In this document: in pieces, positions 12,855-55,749 of the stretch | Numbering within the stretch: the stretch's first letter is position 1 | How the letters are laid out: the number at the start of each line of letters is the position of its first letter | From: a virus | Length of the DNA: 64,000 bases | Virus record (IMG/VR): IMGVR_UViG_3300023281_001121 | Span: 6,250-70,249 of that record | Strand: one strand, 5' to 3' | Program-made: the position numbers and the translations under genes | The notes under the pieces: model-generated | The model's input: only the letters and a program-made list of their open reading frames with translations | What the model was told of the DNA's origin: nothing | Database searches by the model: none

Positions 12855-12861
12855 GAGAGTC

Positions 12862-15547: not shown

Positions 15548-15660
15548 TAGAAGGGGTCTACGGTCATATGGTGAAGGCAGGTGCGACTGCTGGTAGCCAC
15601 TCGCATATAGAGCCGTACTGTCTGGGCGGGTCAGACGCCCCTTTCCACCGGAGTTAAACG

Positions 15661-15933: not shown

Positions 15934-16081
15934 ACGGCGGCTCTAGGTGCGGGGCAATGCCCCAAGGGTGGCTAACGGCGCAAAGACCACGTTAGCACTT
16001 CACCATACCTTTCGATGTTCATCTCTGCTGAATTACCACCGTGTGCTTGCAGCAACGACGGTGCAACCTCAGCTTCAATGC

Positions 16082-16168
16082 CTACGGGCCTGACGTCTCT
16101 ACCGCTTTCTTTGGCTTAACGCCCAACCAGATCCCAATGACAATCCCGATGAGTATCAGTAACCGAAT
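16082..16168 (-). CDS. candidate 28-aa membrane peptide (ATT start or -1 frameshift extension of the upstream gene)
   Basis: IRLLILIGIVIGIWLGVKPKKAVETSGP; TAATT overlap with the upstream stop. Confidence 0.35.
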   Translation of the reverse strand: MRLLILIGIVIGIWLGVKPKKAVETSGP

Positions 16169-16500
16169 TATTCGGTCACGGTCAGAATCGGGGGGAGCGG
16201 GGGGGATGGTGGTGGGGCTACCGTAAAACTGACTGCGTTACTGGGCGCTGATGTGAGTCCGTTCGCAGTTTCCGCTGTCGCGACACATTGGTAAGTGCCC
16301 GGCGCGAAGTCCTCCGTACTCATCGTTTCGCCCATCGTATAGACGAACGTCTGACCCTCACAGATCAGCGTGACGTTCACCAGATCGCCTGCCACGATCG
16401 GCGTGCCATCTTCATAGTCGGTGGGGTTCTGCCATTCGAAGTCGGTCGCAAAAGCCGTGCCGACAAACAGCAGCATCACTAACGTAATCAATCGTTTCAT
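16168..16500 (-). CDS. secreted FN3-like beta-sandwich protein
   Basis: Signal peptide MKRLITLVMLLFVGTAFA; WQNPTDYEDGTP...GTYQCVATA...SAPSNAVSF; Pro-rich tail. Confidence 0.65.
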   Translation of the reverse strand: MKRLITLVMLLFVGTAFATDFEWQNPTDYEDGTPIVAGDLVNVTLICEGQTFVYTMGETMSTEDFAPGTYQCVATAETANGLTSAPSNAVSFTVAPPPSPPLPPILTVTE

Positions 16501-16802
16501 TTCGCCTCCTTATTGGCTGGTGCTGCCCAAACACCTAACAGTGTCGTGAGCAGCGTGACAAATTGCTCCATGGTCTGAGCGTCGTTGAACATAGGGCCGA
16601 GGAACGGCATCTGAGTGACCAGCCACCCGATGCCACCCCCGACTGTAGCTCCTATGAGTTTGTTGTACTGGCTGAGGCCTGCATCGTCCAGAGCCTTCTC
16701 GGTCGCCTTCTTGAAACGCTTCGCGACCTTGACGGCACGATGCGCGCGAAACGCATCGTACCCCTTGCCAGCCAGTTTGCCGACGCCCAGGAGATCCGGC
16801 AC
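16497..16802 (-). CDS. holin-like two-TM membrane protein
   Basis: GTG at 16802; YNKLIGATVGGGIGWLV and FVTLLTTLLGVWAAPAN hydrophobic segments. Confidence 0.55.
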   Translation of the reverse strand: MPDLLGVGKLAGKGYDAFRAHRAVKVAKRFKKATEKALDDAGLSQYNKLIGATVGGGIGWLVTQMPFLGPMFNDAQTMEQFVTLLTTLLGVWAAPANKEAK

Positions 16803-16996
16803 TAGATTACGCCGGGGGCACTCGGTGTCTTGTTGAAGCGGGCGAAGACCCACGCGACAACGCCGACGATGCCCAGCTGGACTTGCGGGTCCAGTAGGAA
16901 CGCTAACGCCGGAACGTACCCAACGATTAGGGTTGCCACGTATCCGACCACACCACCTATCACGGTGGCACTTGAAGTTCGAAGTCCTGTTTCCAC
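16802..16996 (-). CDS. putative holin (64 aa, two TM)
   Basis: VIGGVVGYVATLIVGYV and VQLGIVGVVAWVFARF; close to the endolysin. Confidence 0.6.
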   Translation of the reverse strand: METGLRTSSATVIGGVVGYVATLIVGYVPALAFLLDPQVQLGIVGVVAWVFARFNKTPSAPGVI

Positions 16997-32202: not shown

Positions 32203-33765
32203 CTATTTTTTGAGCCTCTTCTCGGCGATCTTGGTTTCCAGTTCGAGCGTATCGAGCTTGACATCTCCACCGGCAACATTCTCGATGTCGACCTGGTGGT
32301 ACCTGCTCTTAATCCCGCGTTTGAATTTGCTTCGCTCTGTGGTCCTCGCGCTCGCCGACTGTCGCAAGTTGTACGGTCCACTGGAGATCCCCTGATCCGT
32401 AACGAGCGTGAGTTGAAGCTGACCGGATGAACCCACACCTATGTATGCTCCGGTCACCCTCTTGAGAAGAGACGCCTCTGGACCGTTCTCATAGAACGCA
32501 CCGAAGTCTGTTGATCCGATCGTAGCTATAGCGTCGATGTCTATTCCATCGTCGTCGTCTCCATCGAGGAGATAGATGCCATCACTGCGAGCGCCAAGGA
32601 AGTCCTGTCCGATCGCAGCGAAGGCATCAAAGTCGTAGTTCTCGTATCGCGCTGGTGCGCCCGTGTTCTGATTAAGCACCCATGTGTAAAGCTCCTCTGT
32701 TGTGTCCAGGAAGTAAGCGCCCTGCGCGTAGCCGGTCAACTCGGCAAGGGCTTGGATCAGGTAGGCCGAGTCACCGAATCCAGTCAGGGCAGCATAGACA
32801 TTGAGTCCGTACTGACCATCAGTGAACCCGTTCTCTGCCTGGTATGCGTTGAGGACTGCCGTGGCATCAACGAACCCGTTCAGCGCGTTGTAAATAGCAA
32901 GCGTGTACTGACTGTCGGTTCTGAGTTGAGCTAACTGAAGGACCGAGATCGCGTACGCGCTATCGACACGTCCTTCCAGTTGCAGCAGAGCGTTGAGGTC
33001 GTAGTGGACACCAAACTTTTCTTCTATGAGTTGGTATACATCTATAGCCGACTGCGCATCCAGATGACCGTTCGACTCAATGAATGTGTTCAGAGCATAC
33101 TGGGCAATCGCAGCTTGCTCGCGCGCCTCCCAGGCGTTGAGGTCGTAGGCCCCTGTCGCGATTCCATTCTCTTGCTGCTGATACGTCAGGTAGTCGTACG
33201 AACTGACGGCGCTCATCAACAGGTCAACATAGATGTCTATGCTGTACAGGCCACCGAGATAACCCTGAGCGAGAAGATAGATGTCCAGCTGATACTGCGA
33301 ATTGAAGACTTGTTCATCAGCCTCGAATGCCAGGAGGTCGTAGTTGCCCTGCTTCTGATCGTCGAGTTCAACAAAAGCGAGTAGCTGGTATTCCATCTCG
33401 CCAGCGGACCCTTCCAACTCGGCGTAGGCATTGAGAACGTACTTGCCAGAACCGATGATGTCGCCTTCTGCCTGGTATGCGTTTAGGTCTGCGTTGCCTT
33501 GAAGGACTGTGTTCTCAAACTCTTCGAACCCAGCGAGGAAATACGCACCGCCAAAGATCCCTCCCTTGGGATCTGTTTCGCCTTGACCGAGAGTGGCGTC
33601 GCCCGCTTGATACTGGACCCCGATCTCGACCTGGTACTCACTGTTGGCCTGCTGATCGTAGGAGGTGTAGTTGTGGAGGTATTGCCCCACGCCCAACGGA
33701 CCCTGGAGAGCCGACTTACCTTTATGTAAGACCTGCAGATGAACCGAAGTGACACGAATAGCCAT
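32203..33765 (-). CDS. tail protein: N-terminal docking-like motif, ~16-aa Tyr repeats, C-terminal podovirus tail domain
   Basis: MAIRVTSVHLQVLH; NGFxDxxYxLxxYxA-type repeats; WVLNQNTGAPARYENYDFDAF...DGIYLLDGDDDDG..IDA. Confidence 0.65.
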   Translation of the reverse strand: MAIRVTSVHLQVLHKGKSALQGPLGVGQYLHNYTSYDQQANSEYQVEIGVQYQAGDATLGQGETDPKGGIFGGAYFLAGFEEFENTVLQGNADLNAYQAEGDIIGSGKYVLNAYAELEGSAGEMEYQLLAFVELDDQKQGNYDLLAFEADEQVFNSQYQLDIYLLAQGYLGGLYSIDIYVDLLMSAVSSYDYLTYQQQENGIATGAYDLNAWEAREQAAIAQYALNTFIESNGHLDAQSAIDVYQLIEEKFGVHYDLNALLQLEGRVDSAYAISVLQLAQLRTDSQYTLAIYNALNGFVDATAVLNAYQAENGFTDGQYGLNVYAALTGFGDSAYLIQALAELTGYAQGAYFLDTTEELYTWVLNQNTGAPARYENYDFDAFAAIGQDFLGARSDGIYLLDGDDDDGIDIDAIATIGSTDFGAFYENGPEASLLKRVTGAYIGVGSSGQLQLTLVTDQGISSGPYNLRQSASARTTERSKFKRGIKSRYHQVDIENVAGGDVKLDTLELETKIAEKRLKK

Positions 33766-34967
33766 TAGCTAACGATCTCGTAGCCGATCTCTGCGGCGTT
33801 CACCTCTGCCATCGTCCATGGCGCTGTGGTATCAGGGTTGTCCTCATAGATGTGGTAGAGCGCCTGGAATTCAGATTCCGTCAGCGTCAGAGTCGTGCCG
33901 ACTCCCTCCGTAGTGCCTTCGAAGATGACAACGCGAGCAGTGCGCGTGCCTGTATCAAGCGTGTCCTTTGCGATGGCCATGACCTGCACCGCCTGGACCG
34001 ATCCGAACAGATCCTCCGGGACCACCGAAGTGAACGTGTCAACACGGTCCTTGTTAGTCGCGACGTTGGCCTCGTTGTACGTGGTGTCGAAATCATGCTG
34101 GACCTCGTCCACCATCAGCGCGTTGTTGGTGCCAGATTGAGGAGTGAAGTCAATCTCGCCGACAACTTCGGCTGATGGGTAGAGGACGTCGATGGTTGCA
34201 GGGTAAATAAAGTCCTGCTCCCCAGCGACAGCCGGATCAATAATGTGGAGATCAGTGATTCGATAGATAGCTCCGGAACCAATAGTTGAGTTGGGATACA
34301 GATCTCCAGACGAGAACCAGATCTGATCCATGACATCGGTGCCTCCGATCGACGTGTCGAGGCCATTACCAAGGAACCAAACGTCTCCGTCGACTCGGAC
34401 CTCTATCTCACCTACAGAGTTATCAATCTTGACCCGGAACTCAACGTAGTACCACTTGCCTAGCTCCAACGCATGGAAGGTCGAGTCGCCCGCAGCCTCT
34501 GCGTCGTCCTCTCCCTCCCAGAAGAATCCACTGCCGGTGCCCAACTGAATCCGCATGTACGCAAGGTTAGTCTCACCCTGATCACCGAAGAAGTTGAACT
34601 CAGTCGTGACGTGAGTGAAGTTACCGGAGTCGTCTCGGAAATAGAGGAACGTGTCATCACCATGGATCTGCGCTGGGTTCCATCCCTCCAACATCAGATT
34701 GAAGCCGACGATGTACTCGTCTTTCGACGGTAGATCTATCTTCACGTTCGCTGACTGCGACGCTCCGATGTTTCCCTTGAACCTCAAACATCCAGGCGCA
34801 GGGGAACGCGGCGACTGGGTACCCGAAGGCATAGTCGTCGGTCCACCTGTTGGCAGGATCTCGATGTTGTTACCGAGAACCGCTCCATCTTTCGTGAGCG
34901 TGTAACGCGCCTCCAGGTCCTGGAAGCCGCGATACTGGCTCCAGGATTCCATCCACACGACACTCAT
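33765..34967 (-). CDS. ConA/LamG-like putative receptor-binding protein, paralog 5 (diverged)
   Basis: ATG at 34967 (TAATG); MSVVWMESW, WYYVEFRVKIDNSVGEIEVRVDG, FTPQSG.N..MVDEV..DFDTTY, WTMAEVNAAEIG. Confidence 0.7.
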   Translation of the reverse strand: MSVVWMESWSQYRGFQDLEARYTLTKDGAVLGNNIEILPTGGPTTMPSGTQSPRSPAPGCLRFKGNIGASQSANVKIDLPSKDEYIVGFNLMLEGWNPAQIHGDDTFLYFRDDSGNFTHVTTEFNFFGDQGETNLAYMRIQLGTGSGFFWEGEDDAEAAGDSTFHALELGKWYYVEFRVKIDNSVGEIEVRVDGDVWFLGNGLDTSIGGTDVMDQIWFSSGDLYPNSTIGSGAIYRITDLHIIDPAVAGEQDFIYPATIDVLYPSAEVVGEIDFTPQSGTNNALMVDEVQHDFDTTYNEANVATNKDRVDTFTSVVPEDLFGSVQAVQVMAIAKDTLDTGTRTARVVIFEGTTEGVGTTLTLTESEFQALYHIYEDNPDTTAPWTMAEVNAAEIGYEIVS

Positions 34968-35752
34968 TACACAAAGATCCTTACCCCGATGCGGAACGCA
35001 TTGTTGGTCTGCGACTGGTTCGTTCCAGCAGGAACCGTTCGCTTGAGCCACCAACCTTGGTAGTCGCCTGCACTGAGATCAGGGATCACGATGCCGCTCG
35101 CGTAGTCGACCGGGTTGTTGTCATCGAAGTCGATCGTGAGTGCCGGGTCCGTATCCTCGTTGGCGATCACGCCGAGCGCGATGTTCTTCGCCTCGTCACC
35201 GATAGCGATCTGAATCACGTCCTGTCCAGGCGTGTTCTGCTCGACCCACATACGGATGTCGACCATCGCGTCCGTAGCGTGATCATTCTCCCAGTAGACA
35301 CCACGGAACTCGATGTCTCCCGCCTTGGCGTCAGCCTTGGCCACATCATCGAACATGTTGTTCGCGATGTTGGTGATCGTGATCGTGTTGGTCTGATCAC
35401 TGGATGGCAATGCGCCTGAGGTCACGGTGACCTTCAGCACTCCACCATTGCTCGCTCCCTGAATGGCGTAGGCACCATTCGTGGACACGTCCACCGCGAC
35501 ACCCGCTGTGCCGTTGAGAGGCGTCCACCGTAACGTGGTGTTGACACTGTCGAACGCCAGCGTGCCGTCACCCTCGTCGTTGCCAGCGGCGTCATCGATA
35601 ACCACGCCTGTGATGGTCGTTGGCGCGCTGGGCGTCTGCGAAAGAATGTCCTTGGTGCCCGCAGTGGATTTGGCTCCACCCAGGTCCAGGTTCGGATCGG
35701 TGTTCGCGGCACCTCCCGAGTGGACGATTTTCAGATCAGCTAATGTAGCCAT
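34967..35752 (-). CDS. tail/collar structural protein
   Basis: SGGAANTDPNLDLGGA...NMFDDV...IEFRGVYWEN...GWWLKRTVPAG family pattern. Confidence 0.65.
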   Translation of the reverse strand: MATLADLKIVHSGGAANTDPNLDLGGAKSTAGTKDILSQTPSAPTTITGVVIDDAAGNDEGDGTLAFDSVNTTLRWTPLNGTAGVAVDVSTNGAYAIQGASNGGVLKVTVTSGALPSSDQTNTITITNIANNMFDDVAKADAKAGDIEFRGVYWENDHATDAMVDIRMWVEQNTPGQDVIQIAIGDEAKNIALGVIANEDTDPALTIDFDDNNPVDYASGIVIPDLSAGDYQGWWLKRTVPAGTNQSQTNNAFRIGVRIFV

Positions 35753-35762: not shown

Positions 35763-37016
35763 TCAAATTGCACTGCCCCTGCGAGCGGTCTCCAGGGTTA
35801 CATAGTCAGGCGCGAGATAGGACGATTCCACTCCCGTACCCATCGTTGCAACGATCTGCCGCAAGCCTCTCTGCTCACGGAAGATCATCGCACCATTCTC
35901 AAAGTTGCTAACTGCAGACTTGTCTTCTTGGACGTTCGTGATCTGAGCCTCAAGGCCACCGATCACGATCCCGAAATCACTGAACCATGCGACGTTGTCA
36001 GACTTGGGGATGTCGAGTCCAGTGCCCTTCACCGCACCGTACGGCAGCACAGCACGTTGCTGGAACTCGTTCGTGTCAACCCCACTGATCCAATAGGTCT
36101 GATCGGCACAGATGTAAATGCCATCAGCCACTGCCTTCATCACGGTCACGTCGCTTGGGAACTGCAGATAGTTCATGTGCGGCTTCACAAGCCCGTAACG
36201 CATCGCGTCGGTGTACCAGACCACCTTCCCTTGAGCGATGTAGATGCGCCCGTTGTGGTACTCCAGGACCGTTCCGGGTGCCGGTGTGACCCCATGTTGA
36301 GTCTGCAGCCTGATGTCCTGATTGTTGGACACCTGGGTGATCCGGAACGAAGGCACGCCAGTGATGAACTCTCCGACTCGATACAGGCCTTCGCCGTTAA
36401 CTTCCGAACAGTAGACCCGCACCTTGCTGGCTTCCGTTGACGTGGGTATGTCGGTCAGCGTTATCGTTCCGCCGTCCGCTGTCACCTCAGCGATCTTCGC
36501 TAACGGTGTGCCACTTTCCTCGCCGTCGTCAGCGACGAACGTCATGGCAACCTGGTAGGTTCCTGCTGTTAATCCACCGCCGGTATCAGAGACAACCAGT
36601 GTTGGCTGATCAACAGGTGGAGTGATGCCCCACGGCTTGACGAGTCCATCCGCTGTGAGCCTGCCGGTCAGGAGTCCGTTCGAGTAATAGATGTCATTGT
36701 TCACGCTCACGTAGAACATCGGGTGTGGCCCTACGCCCATACGAATCATCAGGCGCACCCAGCTGCCAGACATCTTGACCAGTTCCCATAGGGTACCGCT
36801 CTCGACGAACAGAACTTTTTCACCGTTGGAGTAAAGCGTTCCGCGCTCGATCGTGCCGGTCCAGATTTTTGTCCGGCCACGACGACGTAAGAGGTTGCCC
36901 GTGTCGGTGATGTCGTAGTTGACGCTGCGCCTGAGCGCAGTGACCGGCAACTCCTCAGCACCAAGGATGTTGTTCTCACCGTCAGGGAAGCCAGTGTATT
37001 TCGGATACGTCGGCAT
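35763..37016 (-). CDS. podovirus tail tubular/stabilisation-like protein
   Basis: LRRSVNYDITDTGNLLRRRG N-terminus, Ig-like GGGLTAGTYQVAMTFV insert, NGRIYIA...WYTDAM. Confidence 0.6.
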   Translation of the reverse strand: MPTYPKYTGFPDGENNILGAEELPVTALRRSVNYDITDTGNLLRRRGRTKIWTGTIERGTLYSNGEKVLFVESGTLWELVKMSGSWVRLMIRMGVGPHPMFYVSVNNDIYYSNGLLTGRLTADGLVKPWGITPPVDQPTLVVSDTGGGLTAGTYQVAMTFVADDGEESGTPLAKIAEVTADGGTITLTDIPTSTEASKVRVYCSEVNGEGLYRVGEFITGVPSFRITQVSNNQDIRLQTQHGVTPAPGTVLEYHNGRIYIAQGKVVWYTDAMRYGLVKPHMNYLQFPSDVTVMKAVADGIYICADQTYWISGVDTNEFQQRAVLPYGAVKGTGLDIPKSDNVAWFSDFGIVIGGLEAQITNVQEDKSAVSNFENGAMIFREQRGLRQIVATMGTGVESSYLAPDYVTLETARRGSAI

Positions 37017-37333
37017 CAGCGATCAATAACTAGAAGCAGCCCTTCGGCTTCAAGTGTATTGCCCAGGTCTGTGCTGACGGTGTACGTCACCTTGTAGGTC
37101 TTGCCGTCGACCCCCGCATCGATACGCTGCTGTGCGATCTGCCCAGTGAACGTCGCACTCGACGGGAACGTGAGATCGGTGGTCGCGACGACAGAGCCAT
37201 CAGCCAGCACTTCCTCCTGCCCGACCGAGTCGACGGCGCTGATGGTTTCAGCTGGCGTCTGCACCATCTTCGGGGCGAAGTCCATGTCATAGAGGCGGGA
37301 CTCAGCCGGTTGCTTTTCAAGCAGGTCTGGCAT
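37016..37333 (-). CDS. phage fibre-tail adaptor-like protein
   Basis: KQPAESRLYDMDF...AGVDGKTYKVTYTVSTDLGNTLE. Confidence 0.7.
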   Translation of the reverse strand: MPDLLEKQPAESRLYDMDFAPKMVQTPAETISAVDSVGQEEVLADGSVVATTDLTFPSSATFTGQIAQQRIDAGVDGKTYKVTYTVSTDLGNTLEAEGLLLVIDR

Positions 37334-37342: not shown

Positions 37343-38098
37343 CTAGACCGTGTTCCCGCTCACCCGCATGGTGACAGTCGTGTTCTGCGCGCCAAGGCCA
37401 GCAGTCAACGTAAGCTCCAACCAGCAACCTTGTGCGGCACCCGCTGTCAGGTTCTGGGAGTTCGCCACGTTCTTGTTGGCTGAGTCGAACGTGCCTGCTG
37501 GGGCTGTTTGCCGATTGGACGCACCGTTGTCGCCAGTGTCATCCAGTGTCGCTGGCAGCATGAAAGCCACCACCGTCTGAGGATCGGCCTGCTCGATGAT
37601 GACCGCACTGGTCAGCGTTAGCGTGCCGTGGTTGTTCTTGAAGAAGATCTTGTCGTAGTACGTTCTGGTACTTCCTCCGGACGCGTCCGCAGCAGCATCA
37701 TAGAAAGGCCTGCGTATCTCTAGGACCGCTGGCTCCATGCTCGCGATCGTGGTGTCGGTATCCTGGTCACGGACGGTCACCGTTCCCGTAGTCGACGCCG
37801 ACTTGATTATCTTCAGCACGCGCTCGAATGCAGTTCCCGAGATGAGTACGACGCCCACACCGCTCAGTGTTGCGACATCGTTGACCAGTTCGCCAGCTGC
37901 ATTACGCCCATGGACGGTGATCGTCTGGGTCGTATCGCCAGAATTACTGGACAGGATCTCGATCTCATCCGTGGCCACGATGTCGACAAACACAACACGC
38001 TTGGTCAGCGAGATCGCCCCGCCGATGTTTGTCGGAGTGTCATCATCGGGCATCGTGGCTGAGCCATAAGCGACGATGTCAGCAGCTACGATTGGCAT
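37343..38098 (-). CDS. tail/collar structural protein, probable paralog of 34967-35752
   Basis: IVAADIVAYGS...GGAIS...YDKIFFKNNH...QGCWLELTLTAG. Confidence 0.65.
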   Translation of the reverse strand: MPIVAADIVAYGSATMPDDDTPTNIGGAISLTKRVVFVDIVATDEIEILSSNSGDTTQTITVHGRNAAGELVNDVATLSGVGVVLISGTAFERVLKIIKSASTTGTVTVRDQDTDTTIASMEPAVLEIRRPFYDAAADASGGSTRTYYDKIFFKNNHGTLTLTSAVIIEQADPQTVVAFMLPATLDDTGDNGASNRQTAPAGTFDSANKNVANSQNLTAGAAQGCWLELTLTAGLGAQNTTVTMRVSGNTV

Positions 38099-44940: not shown

Positions 44941-47900
44941 TCAGCCCCCTCGTGGGTTAGGCTCGAACACGGTCCAACGCGTCCCTTGAGCATCCGCTGT
45001 CCAGGCGGTGGGCTGTGATTGTGAACGCCAGCCGGTAGGGCATTGCTCTGCGTACCAGACTTGGGGTGGGTCTGCGTTCCATAGGGTTGGTAAACATGCC
45101 GCCTCCCACGCGGTGTCATCTGCTTCAGCAAGCCAGACGCCACCGATCTCTTCATCGGGGGCTTGCCATTCTGTCCCAGGTTCGTCTGATTGTGCATCAA
45201 CCAGTAGCGTCTCGGCTACCCATAGGCTCTTACACTTCGCAGCAACCCAGACCGTTGGGTCACAATCTGCCACCCAGAAGTTGCAATCTTCAAGGGCGTG
45301 GTCGACGAATAGCGCAAAAGTTGGGTCGAGCCACTCGTACGGAATGACGTAAACAGCATCCGGATCTCCACCCCATGAGATCGGGATCACCCGAGTCTCA
45401 TCGAGAATACCGCGAGCTTCCCACGGTATGCCGTGGCTGAATTCTTTGAAGAAGATCTGCTGCCATGCGATCGGGATGAGGTTATCGAACGTCACGAAGG
45501 TCTCTTGCAGCCACTCGATCGGACTCGAATGATCGGACGCAAAGCCACCTCTGAACTCGTAGGGTATGACCGAGTCAGCAGCAGTGAATGGTGATGTCCA
45601 GTCGAACGGAATCGAGTCGCCAGCAGTCGCATCGAGGACCCATTCGACCGGCATGGAGTGCTGAGCATCGAAGCTGCCTTGCCACTCGATCGGCATGACG
45701 TTACCGGAGGCGACGACTCCACCCCATGAGATGGGCATCGGATGATCCGTGTCGAGGAACCCAGACCAGTCGATCGGTATCTGATGATCCAGCAGTAGCT
45801 CAGCGAACCACTCTATCGGCATGCCGTTATTTTTCAGCACGTCCTGGGTCCACTCGACCGGGATCGCATTGTCCTTGTCGATGATGATCGTCAGCCGCCA
45901 CTGATACGGGATGACATGATCCATCAGCAACTCAAGCTGCCACTCAACCGGAATAACATGATCGAGATTCAGCGCCTGCTGCCATTCGATAGGCGTCTCA
46001 TGCAGGGACACAATGACGTTCTCAAGCAACCACTCGATCGGCATCTGATGATCTAAGTCGAGTTCGGTAAGCCACTCGATCGGTGCTGGCTCGTCGACCT
46101 GTAGATCAGTCTTCCATTCGAACAGGATCGCTAAGTCCGCACCCGGATCTGCGAACGGTCCTTTCCATGAAGCAGGTATCTGTCGATCGAGAGCTAACTC
46201 AGTCGTCCATGTGATGGGAATAACCGAGTCGTGCGACGGGAACATCCGCACGTTCCACTCGTACGGAATGATGTGATCTTGCCTGATGCCAGTGACCCAC
46301 TCGACCGGAATGCTGTTGTCGAGATCGAGGACTCCGGACCAGTTGATCGGGATCTGATAATCGACACCGAACGGTCCTTGCCATTCTATTGGTGGGAGGT
46401 GGTCAGAACTTATCCCTGCCAGCCATGAGACAGGAATCTGATGGTCGCCGGGGGTAGTTACGTTGATCCATTCGAATGGCACCTGGTGATCGAGCAGGAG
46501 ATCGAGCTTCCACTCGACCGGGATGGAATTGTCAGGCTCAACGAACCCAGACCAGTTTATGTTGAGAGCATTATCAGACGCGATGCCTTGCAACCATGAG
46601 ACCAGGATGATCGAGTCGTGTGGCACGATCTCGTTGATCCACTCGAACGGGGCCTGGTGATCGAGCAGTAACTCTGTTATCCACTCGACTGGTATCACAT
46701 GATCCGACTGAACCTGCGGCTGTCGCCAGTCAATCGGGGTCTGATGATCGAGGCCAAGACCCTGCAACCATGAAACGGGGATGACGTGATCGAGGCCAAG
46801 ACCCTGCAGCCACTCGACAGGTATCTGCCGGTCCATCAACAGTTCGGTTGTCCACTCGTACGGAATGATGTGATCGATCAGTAACTCACCACTCCACTCG
46901 ACAGGTATCTGATGATCGAGAGCTAGTTCGGTTGTCCACTCGATAGGAATTATGTGATCCGAATCGACCGGCGTCTCAGCCGGGACGTTGTACAACACCT
47001 CAACCGCTAGGGACGAAACTCGCAGATTCGGGTTAGCTTCTGTCTGAAGCACCTCGACAGTTTCAGAAGTGACCCGCACAGGAGCGGTCGAATCAGCGTG
47101 CAGCGCCTCTGTCGCCAGAGTAGAGACACGCGTGGTTGCTACCGCCGGTTTGTAGAGAACCTTGATCGCAGCATGGCTAAGGCGAACTGGAGCCGTGTCG
47201 TCCTGCGTCAGGACCTTAATTGCAGCATGACTAAGGCGAACGGGAGCCGTGTCGTCCTGCGTCAGGACCTTGATCGCTGAATGGGTAAGGCGAACTGGAA
47301 GCGCGGTGTCTGCTACGATCGGAGCCGCGTCTCCGTTCGTGCCGATCCCCAGATAGTCCAGGTGCATCGTACCGGTGTGAACAGTCCGACCAACGCCACC
47401 CCAACCGGCTGCAGTTATTCTGCTTCCGCTTGTGTCAGTAGTGTCGACGTCCCAACCGGACGGCTCCTCCTGGCCATCAGCCCAGAACTTCGCCTGGAGA
47501 GTGACAGTCGCTCCAGTGCCGTTGATCCTGAGCCTGATCCAGAGCCACTCATTCGTTGGAACCCACGAACCGAAATCACCGAAGCGATCGAACCATGGTC
47601 CCTGTAAGTCGACATTCGACCCATCAGCTATGTTAGTGAATGACCCGGCGTCCCAACGACCAATGTTGAAAACACCTGTATCGCGAATCCCAGCGTAATA
47701 GGCAGTCCCACTACCACTGCCGCCAGAGGCTCTTCCATATAAGTGAAACTGATTGTCGTCGTCGTTCGTTTGCCGGAACCGAGCAACCAATTCGATGTTG
47801 GCGCGGTTAGTATCGCCATCAATCGCATCAAGACTTTGGAGTTGTTGACCGCTATCGCCAGTGGTGAACCTAAGAGTCCGGTCGTCCTCCTCACCTACAG

Positions 47901-48006
47901 CGGGATTCTCAACAGAGATCGCGGTTTCAGTAGCCCACCTGTTGGTGAAGGTCGTGCTATTGGAGCCAGTAGTTTGGCCCGCCAGCGTCTCGGAATAGGT
48001 GGTCAT
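44941..48006 (-). CDS. 1021-aa modular tail scaffold/fibre: lectin-like head, six docking-like motifs, 38 x 14-aa repeats
   Basis: WLWIRLRING...LQAKFWADG.EEPSGW lectin-like domain; DHxIPxEW repeats; WxA C-terminal repeats. Confidence 0.7.
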   Translation of the reverse strand: MTTYSETLAGQTTGSNSTTFTNRWATETAISVENPAVGEEDDRTLRFTTGDSGQQLQSLDAIDGDTNRANIELVARFRQTNDDDNQFHLYGRASGGSGSGTAYYAGIRDTGVFNIGRWDAGSFTNIADGSNVDLQGPWFDRFGDFGSWVPTNEWLWIRLRINGTGATVTLQAKFWADGQEEPSGWDVDTTDTSGSRITAAGWGGVGRTVHTGTMHLDYLGIGTNGDAAPIVADTALPVRLTHSAIKVLTQDDTAPVRLSHAAIKVLTQDDTAPVRLSHAAIKVLYKPAVATTRVSTLATEALHADSTAPVRVTSETVEVLQTEANPNLRVSSLAVEVLYNVPAETPVDSDHIIPIEWTTELALDHQIPVEWSGELLIDHIIPYEWTTELLMDRQIPVEWLQGLGLDHVIPVSWLQGLGLDHQTPIDWRQPQVQSDHVIPVEWITELLLDHQAPFEWINEIVPHDSIILVSWLQGIASDNALNINWSGFVEPDNSIPVEWKLDLLLDHQVPFEWINVTTPGDHQIPVSWLAGISSDHLPPIEWQGPFGVDYQIPINWSGVLDLDNSIPVEWVTGIRQDHIIPYEWNVRMFPSHDSVIPITWTTELALDRQIPASWKGPFADPGADLAILFEWKTDLQVDEPAPIEWLTELDLDHQMPIEWLLENVIVSLHETPIEWQQALNLDHVIPVEWQLELLMDHVIPYQWRLTIIIDKDNAIPVEWTQDVLKNNGMPIEWFAELLLDHQIPIDWSGFLDTDHPMPISWGGVVASGNVMPIEWQGSFDAQHSMPVEWVLDATAGDSIPFDWTSPFTAADSVIPYEFRGGFASDHSSPIEWLQETFVTFDNLIPIAWQQIFFKEFSHGIPWEARGILDETRVIPISWGGDPDAVYVIPYEWLDPTFALFVDHALEDCNFWVADCDPTVWVAAKCKSLWVAETLLVDAQSDEPGTEWQAPDEEIGGVWLAEADDTAWEAACLPTLWNADPPQVWYAEQCPTGWRSQSQPTAWTADAQGTRWTVFEPNPRGG
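45330..46960 (-). repeat. about 38 coding repeats of 14-17 aa, consensus DHxIPxEWxxxLxL
   Basis: Counted in the translation of 44941-48006. Confidence 0.9.
47159..47320 (-). repeat. three tandem 54-bp coding repeats (DTAPVRLSHAAIKVLTQD)
   Basis: Unit starts at 47159, 47213 and 47267; near-identical DNA. Confidence 0.9.
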
Positions 48007-48015: not shown

Positions 48016-49044
48016 CTAGGTAACTAATTTAATGCCAAACTGCGCGGCGTTAACAGATGTCTCTGTCCAGTTGATTCCACCGTTAGGATCATTCTCGTAC
48101 ATGGCTTCTTTGTAATGGTAGTCAACGCCGAGAGACAGATTTGCACTGTCTACCTCCGTCACGTTGCTCCTGGCCACCGTAGCTATCTCTCTGAACCCCG
48201 CCTCTTCTTTGCGAGCCAACAGAGACACCTGAACACCGAACACGTCACCGATACTTGCCCCGGCTAGAGCGGCAAACCCATAGAGATCTTTATTGGTGGC
48301 TGTGGCCGAGTGAACGTACGTGGTGTCGTCATCGGGTGGGGCCATTTCATCGACGCGATCGGCGTTGGTCGAGCCAGCACCAACCGCCGTGAAATTATTA
48401 GTGGCCCCATCTGCGTCTGGCAGCAGCGTCTCGACAAACACATCCCCTAACCTGGCAGTGTTGTCTGAACCGCTATCGTCCAGAACATAAACGTCATCGA
48501 CCAAAGCATCAGTGAAGCTATGCCCGAAGAACCGAATCGTATCGATGAACGCGTCGGTGCCGTTCAGAGTATCCGCTGATGTCCCGGTGATGACGTTCTG
48601 CCCGTCAACGTAGACATCGTAGGTGCCGGTCGAGTCATGGAGCGTGACGTCCACCTCGATGTAATACCAGGTAGACATGGCAAGCCCCAACCCGCTACTA
48701 ATCCCAAGTTGCGTCGACCCTCGATCGATTGAGATCTCGCCGCTGGCATTCGTTCTTAGGGTTATCTTCTCCACGCCTACGCCGAACGTATTGAAGATGT
48801 CTACGAGTTGAGGACCGGCGTTAACCAGGCGGTATGCGAATCCCACCACGAACGATGCAGTAGTTGGCGGAACGGCGTGAGAAGCAAAGCCATTAGTGAA
48901 GACCATCTGCATGGCTCTGCCCACGCCATCTCTTCCTGCCGTGGACTGCGTCACGTAAGCGTCATTGTCGAAGTTCCACCCGCCTCGCCTTTGCTCCGCA
49001 TCATCGTCGTACTGTTCGAAACCTTCAATGAAAAGCAATGCCAT
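48016..49044 (-). CDS. ConA/LamG-like putative receptor-binding protein, paralog 4
   Basis: MALLFIEGFEQY; WYYIEV; GDVFVETLLPD; PDDDTTY; WTETSVNAAQFG. Confidence 0.75.
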   Translation of the reverse strand: MALLFIEGFEQYDDDAEQRRGGWNFDNDAYVTQSTAGRDGVGRAMQMVFTNGFASHAVPPTTASFVVGFAYRLVNAGPQLVDIFNTFGVGVEKITLRTNASGEISIDRGSTQLGISSGLGLAMSTWYYIEVDVTLHDSTGTYDVYVDGQNVITGTSADTLNGTDAFIDTIRFFGHSFTDALVDDVYVLDDSGSDNTARLGDVFVETLLPDADGATNNFTAVGAGSTNADRVDEMAPPDDDTTYVHSATATNKDLYGFAALAGASIGDVFGVQVSLLARKEEAGFREIATVARSNVTEVDSANLSLGVDYHYKEAMYENDPNGGINWTETSVNAAQFGIKLVT

Positions 49045-49048
49045 AGTT

Positions 49049-50071
49049 TTACGCCTGTAGTTTGTAACCGAACTCGCCTGCGTCGACCTCACTGGCAGTC
49101 CAGACTGCAGCACCTGATGGGTGGTCAACGAATAGGCTCTGCCACCAACTATAATCTCCGTACGCCGGATAGAAGTCTGCGCTTTCGCCTTCAGTCACTC
49201 CATCGTACGCGACAGCCCTCATCGTTCGCGGACCTGTCTCTGTCTTCCTGGAATGCACATTAACAGCAACCGCATGCACTGTGGTTGGACTGCCGGATAG
49301 ATTGTCGTGCGCATGACGATCGGTACTGGGCGCGACAGTGTCTTCGTTATAGGTTGTGTCATCGTCAGGGTCTCCAACCTCGTCCACGTTCTGCCAGTTC
49401 GCCCCGGCTGACGGAGTGAACTCAGCGTCAGCGCCAACGCCAGACGGATAGAGAGTTTCGATACCACAATCGCCAATGAAGTCGTTCAGCCTGGAGCCAG
49501 TGGTGTCCAAGATGTAGAGGTCGTCGAACCCGCTGTCGAGCGTGTTGCTGCCAAGGAGTTGCAGTGCGTTCGTGCCAACCGGGCCTGAACCGTTAAGCGT
49601 GTCGAGTCCGGTCTCGTTTATCCACACTTCATTGTTGACACGGACCTCAACCGTCCCAACCGTATTGCTAATCAATGCCTTAATCTCGATGTGATTCCAG
49701 ACACCTAACGGAAGAGCTTTGTCGCTGAAGGCAATGTCTGTAGTGCCACCGCGACTGACGACGATCTTGTTCCCGATGCTGGACCCGAACCCGAGATGAA
49801 TCCATTCATTCCCATAGAGTCGCACCCAGTCGCTCGTCTCGCCTCTATCAAGCTTCAGAGCGAATCCAATGATGATCGTTACGCTTAGGGGATAAGGATG
49901 AGCAAGATTCGTATTTCCCAGCAGAACAGTAGCCATGCCAACGCCGTTTCGCCCGGTTTGCGCGTTCGCACCTGTCGCCTCACCGCTGCCGCCTACAGCC
50001 CATTTGTAAGGGAACTTTTTGATCTGATCTGACGAGTAGTAGTCGAACCCGTCCATGAAAAGCAGCGCCAT
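49049..50071 (-). CDS. ConA/LamG-like putative receptor-binding protein, paralog 3
   Basis: MALLFMDGFDYYSS; WNHIEIK; GSRLNDFIGD; PDDDTTY; DHPSGAAVWT. Confidence 0.75.
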   Translation of the reverse strand: MALLFMDGFDYYSSDQIKKFPYKWAVGGSGEATGANAQTGRNGVGMATVLLGNTNLAHPYPLSVTIIIGFALKLDRGETSDWVRLYGNEWIHLGFGSSIGNKIVVSRGGTTDIAFSDKALPLGVWNHIEIKALISNTVGTVEVRVNNEVWINETGLDTLNGSGPVGTNALQLLGSNTLDSGFDDLYILDTTGSRLNDFIGDCGIETLYPSGVGADAEFTPSAGANWQNVDEVGDPDDDTTYNEDTVAPSTDRHAHDNLSGSPTTVHAVAVNVHSRKTETGPRTMRAVAYDGVTEGESADFYPAYGDYSWWQSLFVDHPSGAAVWTASEVDAGEFGYKLQA

Positions 50072-51093
50072 CAAACCACCTCGAATCCGAATTGCCCACT
50101 GTTTATTTCTGCCGCAGTCCAGACCGCAGCGCCTGATGGATGATCTTCGAATATGGTTTGCGCCCACTGATACGTGTTGAGAGTAGGAGTGAAGACTGCG
50201 CCGACACCTTCGGTTGTCCCGTCATGAGCAACAGCCCTCACATCACCAACTCCATTCACCGTTCGCTTAGCATACGCGTTAACGGCTACTGCATGAACGG
50301 TGTCAGGGGTTCCCACTAGATTCCCGTGAGCGTGACGATCTTTGTCGGTAGAAGTAGATGACTCAACGTAAGTCGTATCGTCGTCTGGCACCAACTCATC
50401 GACAGCCTCCCAGTTAGTTCCTGCTAGAGGGGTCCAATCGGAACTCGCTCCGACGCCCGTAGGATAGATAGTCTCTATCCGCACATCCCCGATAAAGTCA
50501 TTCAGCCTAGAGCCGCTGGTATTCAAAATGTAGACGTCATCGAGAATAGGAGCGATGTCATTCGACCCGAAGAAGATGATGCTGTCGCATTCAGCGTCTC
50601 CTGACAGGGACGTGTCCAGGCTAGTTATCTCTGGGATGCCAGCGACACTAGATCCGTTAAGGCGCATCTCCAGCGTGCCTGCCGTGTTATGGAACGCTAT
50701 CTTTATCTCGATGTAGTTCCAAGTGTCAGGCGAGATCAGCGTAGCGGAACGACCGATTTCAACGGTGCCTCCAGTCTGAAACTGCAGCGCCCCACCGTTA
50801 GTCATAAAGACGCCGACTTGCGTGGTTGCGCCATCTCTGAATCGAAGGAATTCAGTATTCGCTTGGCGGGAATACTTAAACGCAAACCCGATCACCACGG
50901 TCGAAGTAACCGTGAATGCCTTCTCTATGTTAGCGAGCGCGAGCATGTTGATTGCCTGACCAACACCGTCGCGTCCCACGACAGCATTCAGCCCTGTCGA
51001 GACGAAGAACCCGCTAGGGGTGAACTTGTTCTCCAGGTCGTCTGTCTGATCGCTGGTGTAGTGATCGAACCCTTCCATTAAGATCAGCGACAC
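50071..51093 (-). CDS. ConA/LamG-like putative receptor-binding protein, paralog 2
   Basis: MSLILMEGFDHY; WNYIEIK; GSRLNDFIGDVRIETIYP; PDDDTTY. Confidence 0.75.
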   Translation of the reverse strand: MSLILMEGFDHYTSDQTDDLENKFTPSGFFVSTGLNAVVGRDGVGQAINMLALANIEKAFTVTSTVVIGFAFKYSRQANTEFLRFRDGATTQVGVFMTNGGALQFQTGGTVEIGRSATLISPDTWNYIEIKIAFHNTAGTLEMRLNGSSVAGIPEITSLDTSLSGDAECDSIIFFGSNDIAPILDDVYILNTSGSRLNDFIGDVRIETIYPTGVGASSDWTPLAGTNWEAVDELVPDDDTTYVESSTSTDKDRHAHGNLVGTPDTVHAVAVNAYAKRTVNGVGDVRAVAHDGTTEGVGAVFTPTLNTYQWAQTIFEDHPSGAAVWTAAEINSGQFGFEVV

Positions 51094-51102
51094 CGTTCTC
51101 TC

Positions 51103-52122
51103 CTACGCCTGGATCTTGTAACCGAACTCGCCAGAGTTTACTTCGCTCTCGGTCCACACGGCAGCGCCAGTAGGATGATCCTCAAAGAGAGCCTGCTGCC
51201 AAAAGTAGTCACCAAACGTAAAATACTGATCTGCGCTCTCGCCCTCGGTCGTTCCGTCGTAAGCGACCATCCTCACTGTTCTCGCTCCAGCTTCTGTCTT
51301 CTTCGCCCGAGCGTTAACGGCCACCGCGTGAATGTCGCCAATGTCTCCGACTAGATTCCCCACAGTGAATCTGTCCTTGCTGGAGACAACCGTGTCCTCG
51401 TTGTAGGTGGTGTCGTCGTCAGGCACGACCTCATCGACGTTCTGCCAATTCGATCCAGCAGAAGGTGTGAAGTCAGTAGCCGCTCCAGCGCCATCAGGGT
51501 AAATGGTCTCGATGTACACCGGGCCTAGAAAGTCGTTGAGACGAGACCCTGTTGTATCAAGAATGTAGAAATCATCGATCACCGGCACATTGGAGTTGTC
51601 ACCAATGATGTTCACCATGTCGATGGTCGCGTTGGCGCTAACCTGCGTGTCTTGATTGGTCAGCGGACCTATCTCTACATTCCCATCGACGCGCAGTTCA
51701 ATCGTCCCGACCGAGTTATCGATCTTGATTCGCAATTCAACGTGAAACCAGGTGTCCACGGCGAACGTGCTTGACGACGTACCCAGAACCGTAGTCGTGC
51801 CTCGACGCACAACGAAATGATCCGAAGCATCGAACCCGAGAGACAGCTGGATGGTGGCTAGATCATAGAACCGAATGTGTGAAACGCTAAGATTATTCGT
51901 GAACTTGTGATTGAACCCGATGATGATCTCACCGACACTCGTAAAGTTCCTGGCGATGTCTCCCAGACCCTGTAGCGAAATGGCAGATCCGCTGCCGATC
52001 GCACCGGTTACTGCGTTCATCGAGGAGGTGTAGAAGAGTCCTGTGCGTTGCCACTTGGTGGCAAGGTCTTCGTATTGGTCGCTACTGTAGTAGTCGAACC
52101 CATCCATAAAAAGAAGGGCCAT
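51103..52122 (-). CDS. ConA/LamG-like putative receptor-binding protein, paralog 1
   Basis: MALLFMDGFDYYSS; WFHVELRIKIDNSVG; GSRLNDFLG; PDDDTTY. Confidence 0.75.
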   Translation of the reverse strand: MALLFMDGFDYYSSDQYEDLATKWQRTGLFYTSSMNAVTGAIGSGSAISLQGLGDIARNFTSVGEIIIGFNHKFTNNLSVSHIRFYDLATIQLSLGFDASDHFVVRRGTTTVLGTSSSTFAVDTWFHVELRIKIDNSVGTIELRVDGNVEIGPLTNQDTQVSANATIDMVNIIGDNSNVPVIDDFYILDTTGSRLNDFLGPVYIETIYPDGAGAATDFTPSAGSNWQNVDEVVPDDDTTYNEDTVVSSKDRFTVGNLVGDIGDIHAVAVNARAKKTEAGARTVRMVAYDGTTEGESADQYFTFGDYFWQQALFEDHPTGAAVWTESEVNSGEFGYKIQA

Positions 52123-54630: not shown

Positions 54631-55749
54631 TTAACCTGGATCAGCCGAGTACGTGTCCAGCGCGATAACGCCGAAGTCCTTAGCCGTTCCCTCGATGGTG
54701 AACCGAGTCTTTTTCAACCCGAAGATTGACGACGTCGAGATGATCAGCTGGTTGCCGTTGTCGCGAGTCTCTTCGTGCCAGTTGAACCGAAGTCCAGTGC
54801 CTGGAGAGCCGAACGCAACCACCGCAGCCTGCGAACCAAGGAACAGGGATCGTGCGGCTGGCTCTGCGCCACCGGCACCGGCATTCGTGAAACGAATTAC
54901 GCCCTTATGGCTGTGCAGCACGACGTTGTTGTGCATGCCCAAGCCGCCCTTGAAGATCGGCGAGGATCGACCCTCTGCCGTCGCCGCTGCTTTCTGGATC
55001 TCCAACCAGTTCGACGCACCCGTCGCGGTTCGAAGATCGAAAGCCTGCCATGGCGACATCAGAAGAACGTAATGCTCTTCGCCGTCGACCATGATCGGCT
55101 GGATCTGCGGCGTGCCTTGCGTGCCGCCGCCCATCATCACCGCCTTGGTGGCAGCACGATCGATCTCTAGCGTAGTGATCTGATCGTTGTCGCTGATCGT
55201 CGCGAACGATGTCGCGTCGCCACCGTACATGACGTGTTCCGCGTCCGGCGTGTCGAGACCGTTATTCGCGAAACCGGTGTAGCTCGTTGGGAAGATGTAC
55301 TCGGTGTTGCCACCGCGTGATCCAGAAATGTAGATGAACAGAAGCTCATCGAAAATGCGGCCCCACCATTCTGCCTGGCGTGACCGAGCAACTCGGCGAA
55401 GATCGTGGATCGTGCGCTTGCGCGTCATGCGTCCACCTGAGTTCGTGCCACCGCGCATCTGGTCGATGAAGACCGCGTCGGTGTAGAACTTGAGATCCTC
55501 CTCGGTGCCTTCCTGCACGTCGTCACCCTCGATGGGCTGTTGACGAAGCTGCATGGAGAGGTCGAAAGTGATCTGTTCGCCAGCGTCACTTTCTAATTGA
55601 GGAAGCATTTGAATGGGCATCGACGCTTCTGGTCCGACCCCCATGAACTTCTTATTGAAGTACGATACTCGCGCTGTGTCGACCGCGAGAAACGCTGAAA
55701 ACCGCTTGACGGCTTTTGCGTCGTTAAGACCGATGATAGTCCGTGCCAT
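54631..55749 (-). CDS. major capsid protein, N4-gp56 family
   Basis: GEQITFDLSMQL..PIEGDD..EGTEE.LKFY.D...IDQMR; MTRKRTIHDLR; WQAFDLR; PIFKGGLGMHNNVVLH. Confidence 0.9.
   Translation of the reverse strand: MARTIIGLNDAKAVKRFSAFLAVDTARVSYFNKKFMGVGPEASMPIQMLPQLESDAGEQITFDLSMQLRQQPIEGDDVQEGTEEDLKFYTDAVFIDQMRGGTNSGGRMTRKRTIHDLRRVARSRQAEWWGRIFDELLFIYISGSRGGNTEYIFPTSYTGFANNGLDTPDAEHVMYGGDATSFATISDNDQITTLEIDRAATKAVMMGGGTQGTPQIQPIMVDGEEHYVLLMSPWQAFDLRTATGASNWLEIQKAAATAEGRSSPIFKGGLGMHNNVVLHSHKGVIRFTNAGAGGAEPAARSLFLGSQAAVVAFGSPGTGLRFNWHEETRDNGNQLIISTSSIFGLKKTRFTIEGTAKDFGVIALDTYSADPG

What the first reader, a model, noticed from the sequence alone, without database searches (positions are those of the whole stretch)
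46990..47330. Candidate docking-peptide scaffold: xR(V/L)xxxxx(E/K/Q)(V/A)L motifs follow each lectin-paralog block
Seen: the gene right after the four-paralog array (44941-48006) carries six short beta-strand-like motifs in a row (VRLTHSAIKVL, VRLSHAAIKVL x2, TRVSTLATEAL, VRVTSETVEVL, LRVSSLAVEVL). The gene right after the lone fifth paralog (32203-33765) starts with exactly one (IRVTSVHLQVL, about 33727-33759). In both proteins the motifs are followed by a long repeat stalk. Inference: each motif may be a strand-complementation site capturing one lectin paralog, giving a cellulosome-like scaffoldin with swappable binding heads. Three motifs come from a recent 54-bp tandem triplication, so docking-site number may expand or contract. 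This is my best candidate for an undescribed system in the window.
Basis: inference. Interest (0 to 1): 0.85.

Follow-up and report, generated by a model that had tools for sequence, protein, structure and literature searches.

The report
Docking tags for phage lectin heads
A short repeated peptide in two tail proteins of this uncultured phage is most likely a docking tag that holds the sugar-binding "head" proteins encoded just upstream, a tag-and-head pair that recurs in many unrelated phages and extends the recently solved "rope-and-bead" phage fibres.

Summary
Six R(V/L)(S/T)xxxx(E/K/Q)(V/A)L motifs lie exactly 18 residues apart in the 1021-aa protein (44941-48006, minus strand). One more lies at the N-terminus of the 520-aa protein (32203-33765).

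The motif is not private to this phage. It is an unnamed repeat (phrog_13560, no Pfam family) found in many phage tail proteins.

- **Synteny.** In 80 unrelated viral contigs, the gene just downstream of a LamG+C-terminal-domain "paralog" (phrog_2448) carries the motif in 59 of 86 cases. Among other ORFs the figure is 19 of 2209.
- **Reverse test.** Proteins found by the motif alone mostly have a paralog gene upstream.
- **Complex model.** A model places motif 6 on the paralog's conserved C-terminal domain (ipSAE 0.87; best control 0.00).

So docking is supported in silico, not shown. Two sub-claims fail:
- Motif number does not track paralog number (rho 0.17). Three is the usual count.
- The "recent triplication" is an old, conserved three-repeat design.

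The concept has precedent in the rope-and-bead fibres of phages GP4, VP1 and A1002. The 520-aa protein is a homologue of the A1002 nozzle-rope protein. This scan had noted a similar "string" protein on other DNA, but not this pair.

Verdict: a new variant of a known kind.

The parts
44941..48006 (-). P0001, 1021 aa. It has a LamG-like head (aa 1-232), six 18-aa docking-motif units (aa 237-344), about 38 DHxIPxEW repeats and a Trp-rich C-terminal domain. Proposed 'rope' or scaffold.
   Evidence: Translation; phrog_6079 'tail protein' and phrog_13560; AlphaFold2 gives a confident head and pLDDT about 40 for aa 233-360; orthologue alignment A4.
46993..47295 (-). The six motifs. Set A: VRLTHSAIKVL, VRLSHAAIKVL x2. 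Set B: TRVSTLATEAL, VRVTSETVEVL, LRVSSLAVEVL. Register is exactly 54 nt.
   Evidence: Regex scan; TRF; unit-by-unit DNA comparison.
46978..47037 (-). P0001 aa 324-343 (motif 6 and flanks). This is the segment the complex model places on the paralog.
   Evidence: complex prediction interface list.
51103..52122 (-). Paralog 1 (339 aa), a LamG/ConA-like jelly roll plus a conserved C-terminal domain. Proposed lectin 'head' or bead. The predicted contact surface is aa 3-11 and 184-337.
   Evidence: phrog_2448; AlphaFold2 pLDDT 94; fold searches; complex model; interface conservation.
50071..51093 (-). Paralog 2 (340 aa).
   Evidence: phrog_2448 E 2e-48; alignment A1.
49049..50071 (-). Paralog 3 (340 aa from the internal Met that starts MALLFMDGFD).
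   Evidence: phrog_2448; alignment A1.
48016..49044 (-). Paralog 4 (342 aa from the Met that starts MALLFIEGFE). It ends 10 nt before the P0001 start codon.
   Evidence: phrog_2448 E 5e-56 and a weak Laminin_G_3 match; alignment A1.
33765..34967 (-). Paralog 5 (400 aa, diverged). Its stop overlaps the P0002 start codon.
   Evidence: phrog_2448 over aa 189-427 of the long ORF; alignment A1; ORF coordinates.
32203..33765 (-). P0002 (520 aa). It has an N-terminal motif IRVTSVHLQVL (33727-33759), a Tyr-periodic repeat 'rope', and a C-terminal domain (aa 356-518, 32212-32700) homologous to the platform/propeller part of the A1002 nozzle-rope protein gp39.
   Evidence: phrog_26502; PDB chain 26gp_Q E 6.5e-14; PMC13730344 sections 9 and 11.
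35763..37016 (-). Nozzle-base protein homologue (417 aa), the partner that anchors the C-terminus of P0002 in the tail.
   Evidence: PDB chain 26fb_K (A1002 gp42) E 3.5e-37 over aa 10-409; phrog_8040.

Best explanation
The motif is a short docking tag on 'rope' proteins. Each tag, about 11 conserved residues within an 18-residue unit, is unstructured on its own. It binds one LamG+C-terminal-domain protein encoded just upstream. The tag lies against that protein's conserved C-terminal domain and N-terminal strand, most likely by beta-sheet augmentation.

P0002 is the nozzle-rope protein. Its C-terminus is built into the tail nozzle, and its free N-terminal tag would hold paralog 5 at the distal end. 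P0001 carries its own LamG head plus six tags that could load paralogs 1-4, giving a cluster of variable sugar-binding heads on a long repeat stalk.

What is shown:
- the motifs and their register;
- the conserved gene adjacency across unrelated phages;
- the homology of P0002 to a solved nozzle-rope protein;
- virion presence of family members in phage AchV4.

What is inferred: direct binding (a model only), the one-head-per-tag stoichiometry, which paralog sits on which tag, and sugar or receptor binding by the LamG domains.
For: - **Complex model.** ipSAE 0.87 in 3 of 3 runs versus 0.00 for the best of 3 controls. The contact is confined to motif 6 (aa 324-343) and to the paralog C-terminal domain plus N-terminus. 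The mark was reached by 58 of 80 solved complexes and 2 of 110 mismatched pairs; these counts are rough here because my own alignment was used.
- **No memorised template.** No solved sequence relative of either partner exists, so the pass is unlikely to come from a remembered complex.
- **Interface conservation.** Predicted interface residues are the most conserved part of the family: 19 of the top 40 conserved positions against 8.7 expected, p 2.6e-7.
- **Adjacency.** 59 of 86 slots just downstream of a paralog block hold a motif protein, against 19 of 2209 other ORFs of 150 aa or more. Only 9 of the 80 loci share head genes with the window, so the pair travels as a module.
- **Reverse test.** P0008, P0018 and P0016 have a paralog gene directly upstream and P0007 has one two genes away. 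P0006 has a 343-aa gene upstream, but no DNA was available to verify it.
- **Tag region alone.** It is predicted disordered (pLDDT about 40), as expected for a rope.
- **Identical repeats under selection.** The three set-A repeats keep the same peptide within a protein, differ between orthologues, and carry synonymous differences. This fits several sites selected to fit one partner.
- **Virion presence.** Family members AchV4_0025 and AchV4_0026 were detected in virions by LC-MS/MS (PMC7996906; identified as family members).
- **Structural precedent.** Rope proteins hold bead proteins by augmented beta-sheets in GP4, VP1 and A1002. [quoted passage not shown]
Against: - Binding rests on one structure-prediction job with one paralog. 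Only motif 6 was engaged, and the set-A motifs (which lack the conserved Glu) and the P0002 tag were not tested.
- No coordinates could be inspected, so the strand geometry is unknown.
- Motif and paralog numbers do not correlate. Loci exist with 5 paralogs and 3 motifs, or with paralogs and no detectable motif (27 of 86 slots).
- In AchV4 the motif-array protein AchV4_0028 is not in the published virion MS table, although the paralogs are.
- An 18-residue period is tight for 340-residue beads.
- One motif-rich protein (P0010, L088) has no recognisable paralog upstream.
- Synteny alone does not prove contact.
Confidence: 0.6

Rival explanations
1. The 18-aa units are simply a fibrous shaft repeat, for example a trimeric beta-structure, that sets fibre length. 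The paralogs are separate tail proteins that happen to be encoded next door.
For: The period is regular at 18 aa. Arrays of up to 18 units occur in some proteins. Short beta-strands are predicted in each unit. Motif and paralog numbers are uncorrelated.
Against: - A single N-terminal copy (P0002) and 66-111-aa proteins made only of three copies make little sense as shafts.
- The modal array length is three.
- The complex model places the motif on the paralog with controls at 0.00.
- The paralog is the only conserved neighbour across unrelated phages.
Confidence: 0.1
2. The motif is an anchor for some other conserved virion component, or motifs from different proteins zip together. The paralog is co-inherited because it belongs to the same receptor-binding cassette.
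For: Motif arrays are fused to very different virion proteins, such as a phrog_394 tail protein in P0018 and a phrog_1082 tail assembly protein in P0008. N-terminal position is typical of fibre attachment elements. Three motifs per chain, or one per chain of a possibly trimeric protein, would suit a three-fold partner.
Against: No other conserved neighbour was found, because the loci belong to unrelated phage types. The model's interface falls on the paralog's most conserved residues.
Confidence: 0.12
3. The LamG-CTD proteins are assembly chaperones that bind the tag region transiently and are not displayed on the virion.
For: Binding would still explain the model and the synteny. The motif protein AchV4_0028 and the third, diverged paralog-like protein AchV4_0027 were not reported in virions. 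phiCbK gp315 and gp316 are not flagged virion-associated in the record, whereas gp317 is.
Against: AchV4_0025 and AchV4_0026 were found in virions at 75% and 35% coverage. Tandem paralogs with variable lectin-like halves and a conserved C-terminal half look like diversified receptor-binding heads. Known fibre chaperones are usually encoded downstream of their client (general knowledge).
Confidence: 0.08

Closest known systems
Rope-and-bead ('chain-like') fibres of podophages GP4 (PDB 8JOU), VP1 and A1002 (PMC13730344, PLoS Biol, Nov 2026)
   Same: A largely extended rope protein offers tandem short segments, and each holds a small fibre protein by an augmented beta-sheet. Two different bead proteins can share one rope (A1002 gp40 and gp41). 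In GP4 the bead gene (gp80) lies directly upstream of the 325-aa gene gp79. I suspect gp79 is the rope from its Gly/Ala-rich repeats, but neither the record nor the A1002 paper names the GP4 rope gene. If so, the order matches the one seen here. P0002 is a sequence homologue of the A1002 nozzle-rope gp39 C-terminal domain. The window also encodes homologues of the nozzle-base gp42 and of GP4 gp77, and its capsid protein is 52% identical to that of GP4.
   Different: The beads here are 340-aa LamG plus C-terminal-domain proteins (phrog_2448), not 140-170-aa Gp80-fold dimers. There is no PF23140 hit and no PDB sequence relative. The tag (RVTQxAVEVL type, phrog_13560) is a well-defined conserved sequence motif, usually in threes, and is found on many carrier proteins in podo-, sipho- and jumbo-sized phages. 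GP4 itself has neither the paralog family nor the motif.
Branching domain and conserved N-terminal docking peptide of dual receptor-binding proteins in Klebsiella podophages KP32, K11 and KP34 (PMC6872550, PMC13352976)
   Same: A short conserved peptide acts as a portable docking element that attaches one receptor-binding protein to another. It allows several specificities on one virion.
   Different: There the peptide (about 29 aa) is on the secondary tailspike and the receptor is a T4 gp10-like branching domain on the primary spike. Here the tags are arrayed on the carrier and the receptor is the C-terminal domain of the lectin-like head. There is no sequence relation.
Cohesin-dockerin scaffoldins of cellulosomes
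   Same: A scaffold with tandem docking sites and exchangeable functional subunits.
   Different: In cellulosomes the folded cohesin modules are on the scaffold and the dockerin is on the subunit. Here the scaffold carries peptides and the folded acceptor is on the subunit. No Cohesin or Dockerin Pfam match was found. This is an analogy only.

Membership tests
Rope-and-bead chain-like fibre (GP4/VP1/A1002 type) | A rope protein with tandem short docking segments that are extended or unstructured on their own | tested here: met
   Six units in exact 18-aa register. pLDDT is about 40 for aa 233-360 next to a confident head.
Rope-and-bead chain-like fibre (GP4/VP1/A1002 type) | A bead protein of the Gp80 fold (Pfam PF23140, 140-170 aa, dimer) | tested here: not met
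   No PF23140 hit in the paralogs, in the isolated C-terminal domains or in the small neighbouring proteins. The A3 profile finds no GP4, VP1 or A1002 chain in the PDB.
Rope-and-bead chain-like fibre (GP4/VP1/A1002 type) | The bead binds the rope segment by beta-sheet augmentation | tested here: inconclusive
   The complex model gives ipSAE 0.87 versus 0.00 for the best of 3 controls, with a 20-residue tag segment touching 74 paralog residues. The mark was reached by 58 of 80 solved complexes and 2 of 110 mismatched pairs, roughly, since my own alignment was used. No coordinates were available to see the strand pairing.
Rope-and-bead chain-like fibre (GP4/VP1/A1002 type) | The rope is anchored in the tail nozzle through a platform/beta-propeller C-terminal domain (A1002 gp39) | tested here: met
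   Met for P0002: aa 356-518 match gp39 aa 464-616 at E 6.5e-14, and a nozzle-base homologue is present. Not met for P0001, whose anchoring end is unknown.
KP32-type branched receptor-binding proteins | A T4 gp10-like branching domain on a primary tailspike and a conserved N-terminal peptide on the secondary one | tested here: not met
   No such domain was found by Pfam or PHROGs in P0001, P0002 or the paralogs. Only the concept is shared.
phrog_13560 (unnamed 69-aa repeat family) and phrog_2448 (unnamed 335-aa family) | Significant match to the profile | tested here: met
   P0001 aa 291-341 match phrog_13560 at E 2.5e-4, and other motif proteins match at up to 1e-17. All five paralogs match phrog_2448 at 4e-23 to 5e-56.
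Cohesin-dockerin | Cohesin and dockerin domains | tested here: not met
   No Pfam hits.

The most novel reading that the evidence does not exclude
An 11-residue tag (RVTQxAVEVL type) and a LamG plus C-terminal-domain acceptor form a portable plug-and-socket module that unrelated tailed phages use to hang exchangeable lectin heads on any virion protein. Carriers include GP4/A1002-like podophages, Chi-like and AchV4-like siphophages, phiCbK and contigs of 300-600 kb. Tags usually come in threes. Phages with several paralogs would load different heads on one rope and so widen or switch what they bind.
Probability: 0.4. Interest if true: 0.8.

Novelty: new variant of a known kind. Interest (0 to 1): 0.68.

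Why it matters
If the binding is real, it gives a function to two large PHROG families annotated 'unknown function'. Hundreds of cultured phage records carry them, including Chi-like Salmonella phages and Caulobacter phage phiCbK.

It would also take the rope-and-bead fibre principle, solved only in 2023-2026 for three podophages, to a much wider set of phages, with lectin-bearing beads.

It defines a very short sequence-readable tag. With that tag one can predict from a genome which proteins carry heads and roughly how many sites they offer. That helps with annotating receptor-binding machinery and with ordinary laboratory studies of phage host recognition.

Tried and rejected
- **My first reading.** I took the motif for a generic fibre-shaft or anchoring repeat unrelated to the paralogs. 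I dropped this after the synteny statistics and the complex model.
- **One tag per paralog gene.** Rejected: rho 0.17, p 0.13. Within the P0001 family the three six-motif proteins all follow 2 or more paralogs, but these represent only about two independent lineages.
- **A strict multiples-of-three rule.** Three is the clear mode, but arrays of 4, 5, 7 and 8 also occur.
- **N4-like phage with a virion RNA polymerase.** The 2985-aa protein matches only PHROGs of unknown function, and the capsid is GP4-like.
- **Searches of the phage collection.** megablast and tblastn of P0001 and P0002 found nothing.
- **Locus search with the LamG-head alignment A2.** It failed because no conserved stretch was available.
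- **Fold searches of the paralog model.** They returned only generic lectin and glucanase folds for aa 1-204 and no hit for the C-terminal domain.
- **Search for a description of the pair in the literature.** Searches on LamG with tail fibre, and on Chi/YSD1 and AchV4, found none.
- **Covariation between tag and interface residues.** Not attempted, because there are too few independent single-paralog pairs.

Full report
**What is in the sequence**

The window is 64 kb of a 71-kb viral contig. Its minus strand encodes a podophage-type structural module: terminase, portal, capsid protein, many tail genes and a 2985-aa internal protein.

The ORF 44941-48006 (P0001, 1021 aa) has four parts:
- a LamG-like head (aa 1-232);
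- six copies of an 18-aa unit, each with the core R(V/L)(S/T)xxxx(E/K/Q)(V/A)L;
- about 38 DHxIPxEW repeats;
- a Trp-rich C-terminal end.

A six-frame regex scan places the six cores in exact 54-nt register between 46993 and 47295. It places a seventh at aa 3-13 of the ORF 32203-33765 (P0002). Only two unrelated loose matches occur elsewhere in the window. TRF reports the 54-bp unit x2.6 at 87% matches.

**The upstream paralogs**

Four tandem genes (48016-52122) and one diverged copy (33765-34967) all match phrog_2448, a family of unknown function. They share a strongly conserved C-terminal half and a more variable N-terminal half.

An AlphaFold2 model of paralog 1, built on 65 homologues, is confident (pLDDT 94). 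Residues 1-204 form a ConA/LamG-type jelly roll. The C-terminal beta domain found no match. The viral structure library holds full-length look-alikes in cultured phages.

**The motif is a widespread, unnamed repeat**

A phmmer search of the motif region alone against 1.8 billion representatives gave 31 hits. Most are phage proteins with tandem RVTQxAVEVL-type units, often at the N-terminus. The units are fused to quite different domains.

PHROGs recognises them as phrog_13560, a 69-aa family of unknown function. Carriers include a phrog_394 'tail protein' and a phrog_1082 'tail assembly protein'. Pfam has no model.

**Motif and paralog travel together**

I fetched 80 viral loci through the paralog alignment. 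I then scanned them with a paralog HMM and a motif weight matrix. The matrix gave 245 hits in real ORFs against 14 in reversed sequences at the threshold used.
- In 59 of 86 paralog blocks the ORF immediately downstream carries at least one motif.
- Among all other ORFs of 150 aa or more, 19 of 2209 do (odds ratio 252, p about 1e-78).
- Only nine loci share head genes with the window, so this is not common descent of one phage type.

The reverse test agrees. Of the motif proteins found by the motif alone:
- P0008, P0018 and P0016 have paralog genes directly upstream;
- P0007 has one two genes away;
- P0006 has a 343-aa gene upstream, but no DNA was available to check it;
- P0010 has none.

**The module in cultured phages**
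- phiCbK gp316 is a 69-aa protein made of three motifs plus a hydrophobic tail, and it sits next to the paralog gp315.
- AchV4_0025 and AchV4_0026 are family members. They are followed by a diverged paralog-like gene, AchV4_0027, and then by AchV4_0028, which carries about 11 degenerate motifs.
- Chi-like Salmonella phage 37 has three paralogs followed by SP37_57, which has six degenerate hxGE(A/V)L units as judged by eye. These lie just before the YSD1_29-type tail fibre gene.

**Numbers**

Paralog number and motif number are not correlated (Spearman 0.17, p 0.13).

Three is the modal array size instead: 45 of 136 arrays. In the P0001 family, a LamG head plus three motifs is the conserved module. 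Some phages have it as a stand-alone protein of about 300 aa. The window and two relatives have three plus three.

Within a protein the three set-A units are nearly identical. Between orthologues they differ at the variable positions. In the window, units 2 and 3 encode the same 12 residues with six synonymous differences, and in one orthologue the units are only about 56% identical in DNA. So the triplet is old and held alike by selection, not a recent duplication.

**Does the tag bind the paralog?**

Alone, the tag region is predicted unstructured (pLDDT about 40) next to a confident head.

It scored ipSAE 0.87 in all three runs. All three controls scored 0.00, and two of them replaced the partner with an unrelated protein. 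The mark was reached by 58 of 80 solved complexes and 2 of 110 mismatched pairs in the tool's calibration; those counts hold only roughly because I supplied my own alignment.

The contact is confined to aa 324-343, that is motif 6 with short flanks. On the paralog it covers the N-terminal strand and the C-terminal domain.

Those interface residues are significantly more conserved than the rest of the family (p 2.6e-7), and 19 of the 40 most conserved positions fall among them against 8.7 expected. Neither partner has a sequence relative in the PDB, so recall of a solved complex is unlikely.

This supports binding. It does not show it.

**What is already known**

I checked the link directly:
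- the window's capsid protein is 52% identical to that of GP4;
- the 105-aa protein at 37016-37333 matches Pfam PF23148, the GP4 gp77 fibre-tail adaptor;
- P0002 aa 356-518 match the C-terminal platform/propeller part of A1002 gp39, the 'nozzle-rope' protein (E 6.5e-14);
- the 417-aa protein at 35763-37016 matches the A1002 nozzle-base gp42 (E 3.5e-37).

In A1002 the rope carries 11 dimers of two small bead proteins. Each dimer forms an augmented beta-sheet with the rope. GP4 and VP1 have similar fibres.

So the principle of a rope with tandem docking segments and exchangeable small binding proteins is established. The docking-peptide idea is also known from Klebsiella podophages.

What differs here:
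- the bead is a 340-aa lectin-like protein with no Gp80 signature;
- the tag has a crisp consensus;
- the pair is spread across very different phages;
- GP4 itself has neither the paralog family nor the motif.

**Model for this phage (inference)**

P0002 is fixed in the nozzle by its C-terminus. Its N-terminal tag would hold paralog 5 at the far end of the rope. P0001 presents its own LamG head and up to six further heads drawn from paralogs 1-4.

Virion presence of family members is supported by published LC-MS/MS for AchV4_0025 and AchV4_0026. The AchV4 tag protein was not in that table, which is a caveat.

**Verdict**

The number-tracking and recent-expansion claims are rejected. This is a new variant of the rope-and-bead or docking-peptide kind, of good interest because of its breadth and its simple tag.

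Noticed in passing
window 32203-33765 (-), 35763-37016 (-): P0002 and the 417-aa protein are homologues of the split nozzle of Pseudomonas phage A1002: nozzle-rope gp39 and nozzle-base gp42. The Tyr-periodic repeats of P0002 (about aa 100-350) are therefore probably a second kind of fibre-dock for other small proteins. The candidates are the two phrog_13135 proteins at 34967-35752 and 37343-38098.
   Followed up: partly
window 37016-37333 (-); 54631-55749 (-): The 105-aa protein matches Pfam PF23148, the GP4 gp77 fibre-tail adaptor. The capsid protein is 52% identical to those of Ralstonia phage GP4 and Pseudomonas phage Itty13, and it is related to capsids of Stx-converting phages.
   Followed up: partly
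L092 (Caulobacter phage phiCbK NC_019405.1) 4622-5921: gp316 (69 aa) consists of three perfect tags plus a hydrophobic C-terminal strand. It sits next to the paralog-family protein gp315, between the 1412-aa tail protein and the lysis genes. Both are annotated hypothetical.
   Followed up: partly
L093 (Achromobacter phage AchV4 MW269554) 12050-16991: AchV4_0025 and AchV4_0026 are paralog-family members that LC-MS/MS detected in virions. AchV4_0027 looks like a diverged third copy. AchV4_0028 starts with about 11 degenerate tags but is absent from the published virion table.
   Followed up: partly
L089 (Salmonella phage 37, Chi-like) 4971-10026: Three paralog-family genes and an apparently split fourth are followed by SP37_57 (annotated 'site-specific recombinase'). 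Its N-terminus has six units of 15-20 aa ending in GE(A/V)L or CEA(L/I), a possible degenerate tag array. It lies just upstream of the YSD1_29-type tail fibre gene. The repeats were seen by eye only.
   Followed up: no
L016, L022, L025, L036, L039 (ORFs listed): These are stand-alone proteins of about 300 aa made of the P0001-type LamG head, two or three tags and a short hydrophobic C-terminal strand (for example QTVICTIT, SIQCIIMT). The mini tag proteins end in a similar strand, which may be how they are fixed to the virion.
   Followed up: no
L088 402-3017 (P0010): An 871-aa protein has about 18 units of a variant tag, G(R/Y)(F/L)TQxxxE(V/I)L, alternating with a second type ending in SVL. 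No recognisable paralog lies in the 131 aa of the upstream gene that the contig holds.
   Followed up: no
one search hits H2-H4: The paralog family also occurs in 'Tetraselmis viridis virus' S20 and SI1 (39-kb records filed under an algal host) and in a 595-kb uncultured phage record.
   Followed up: no
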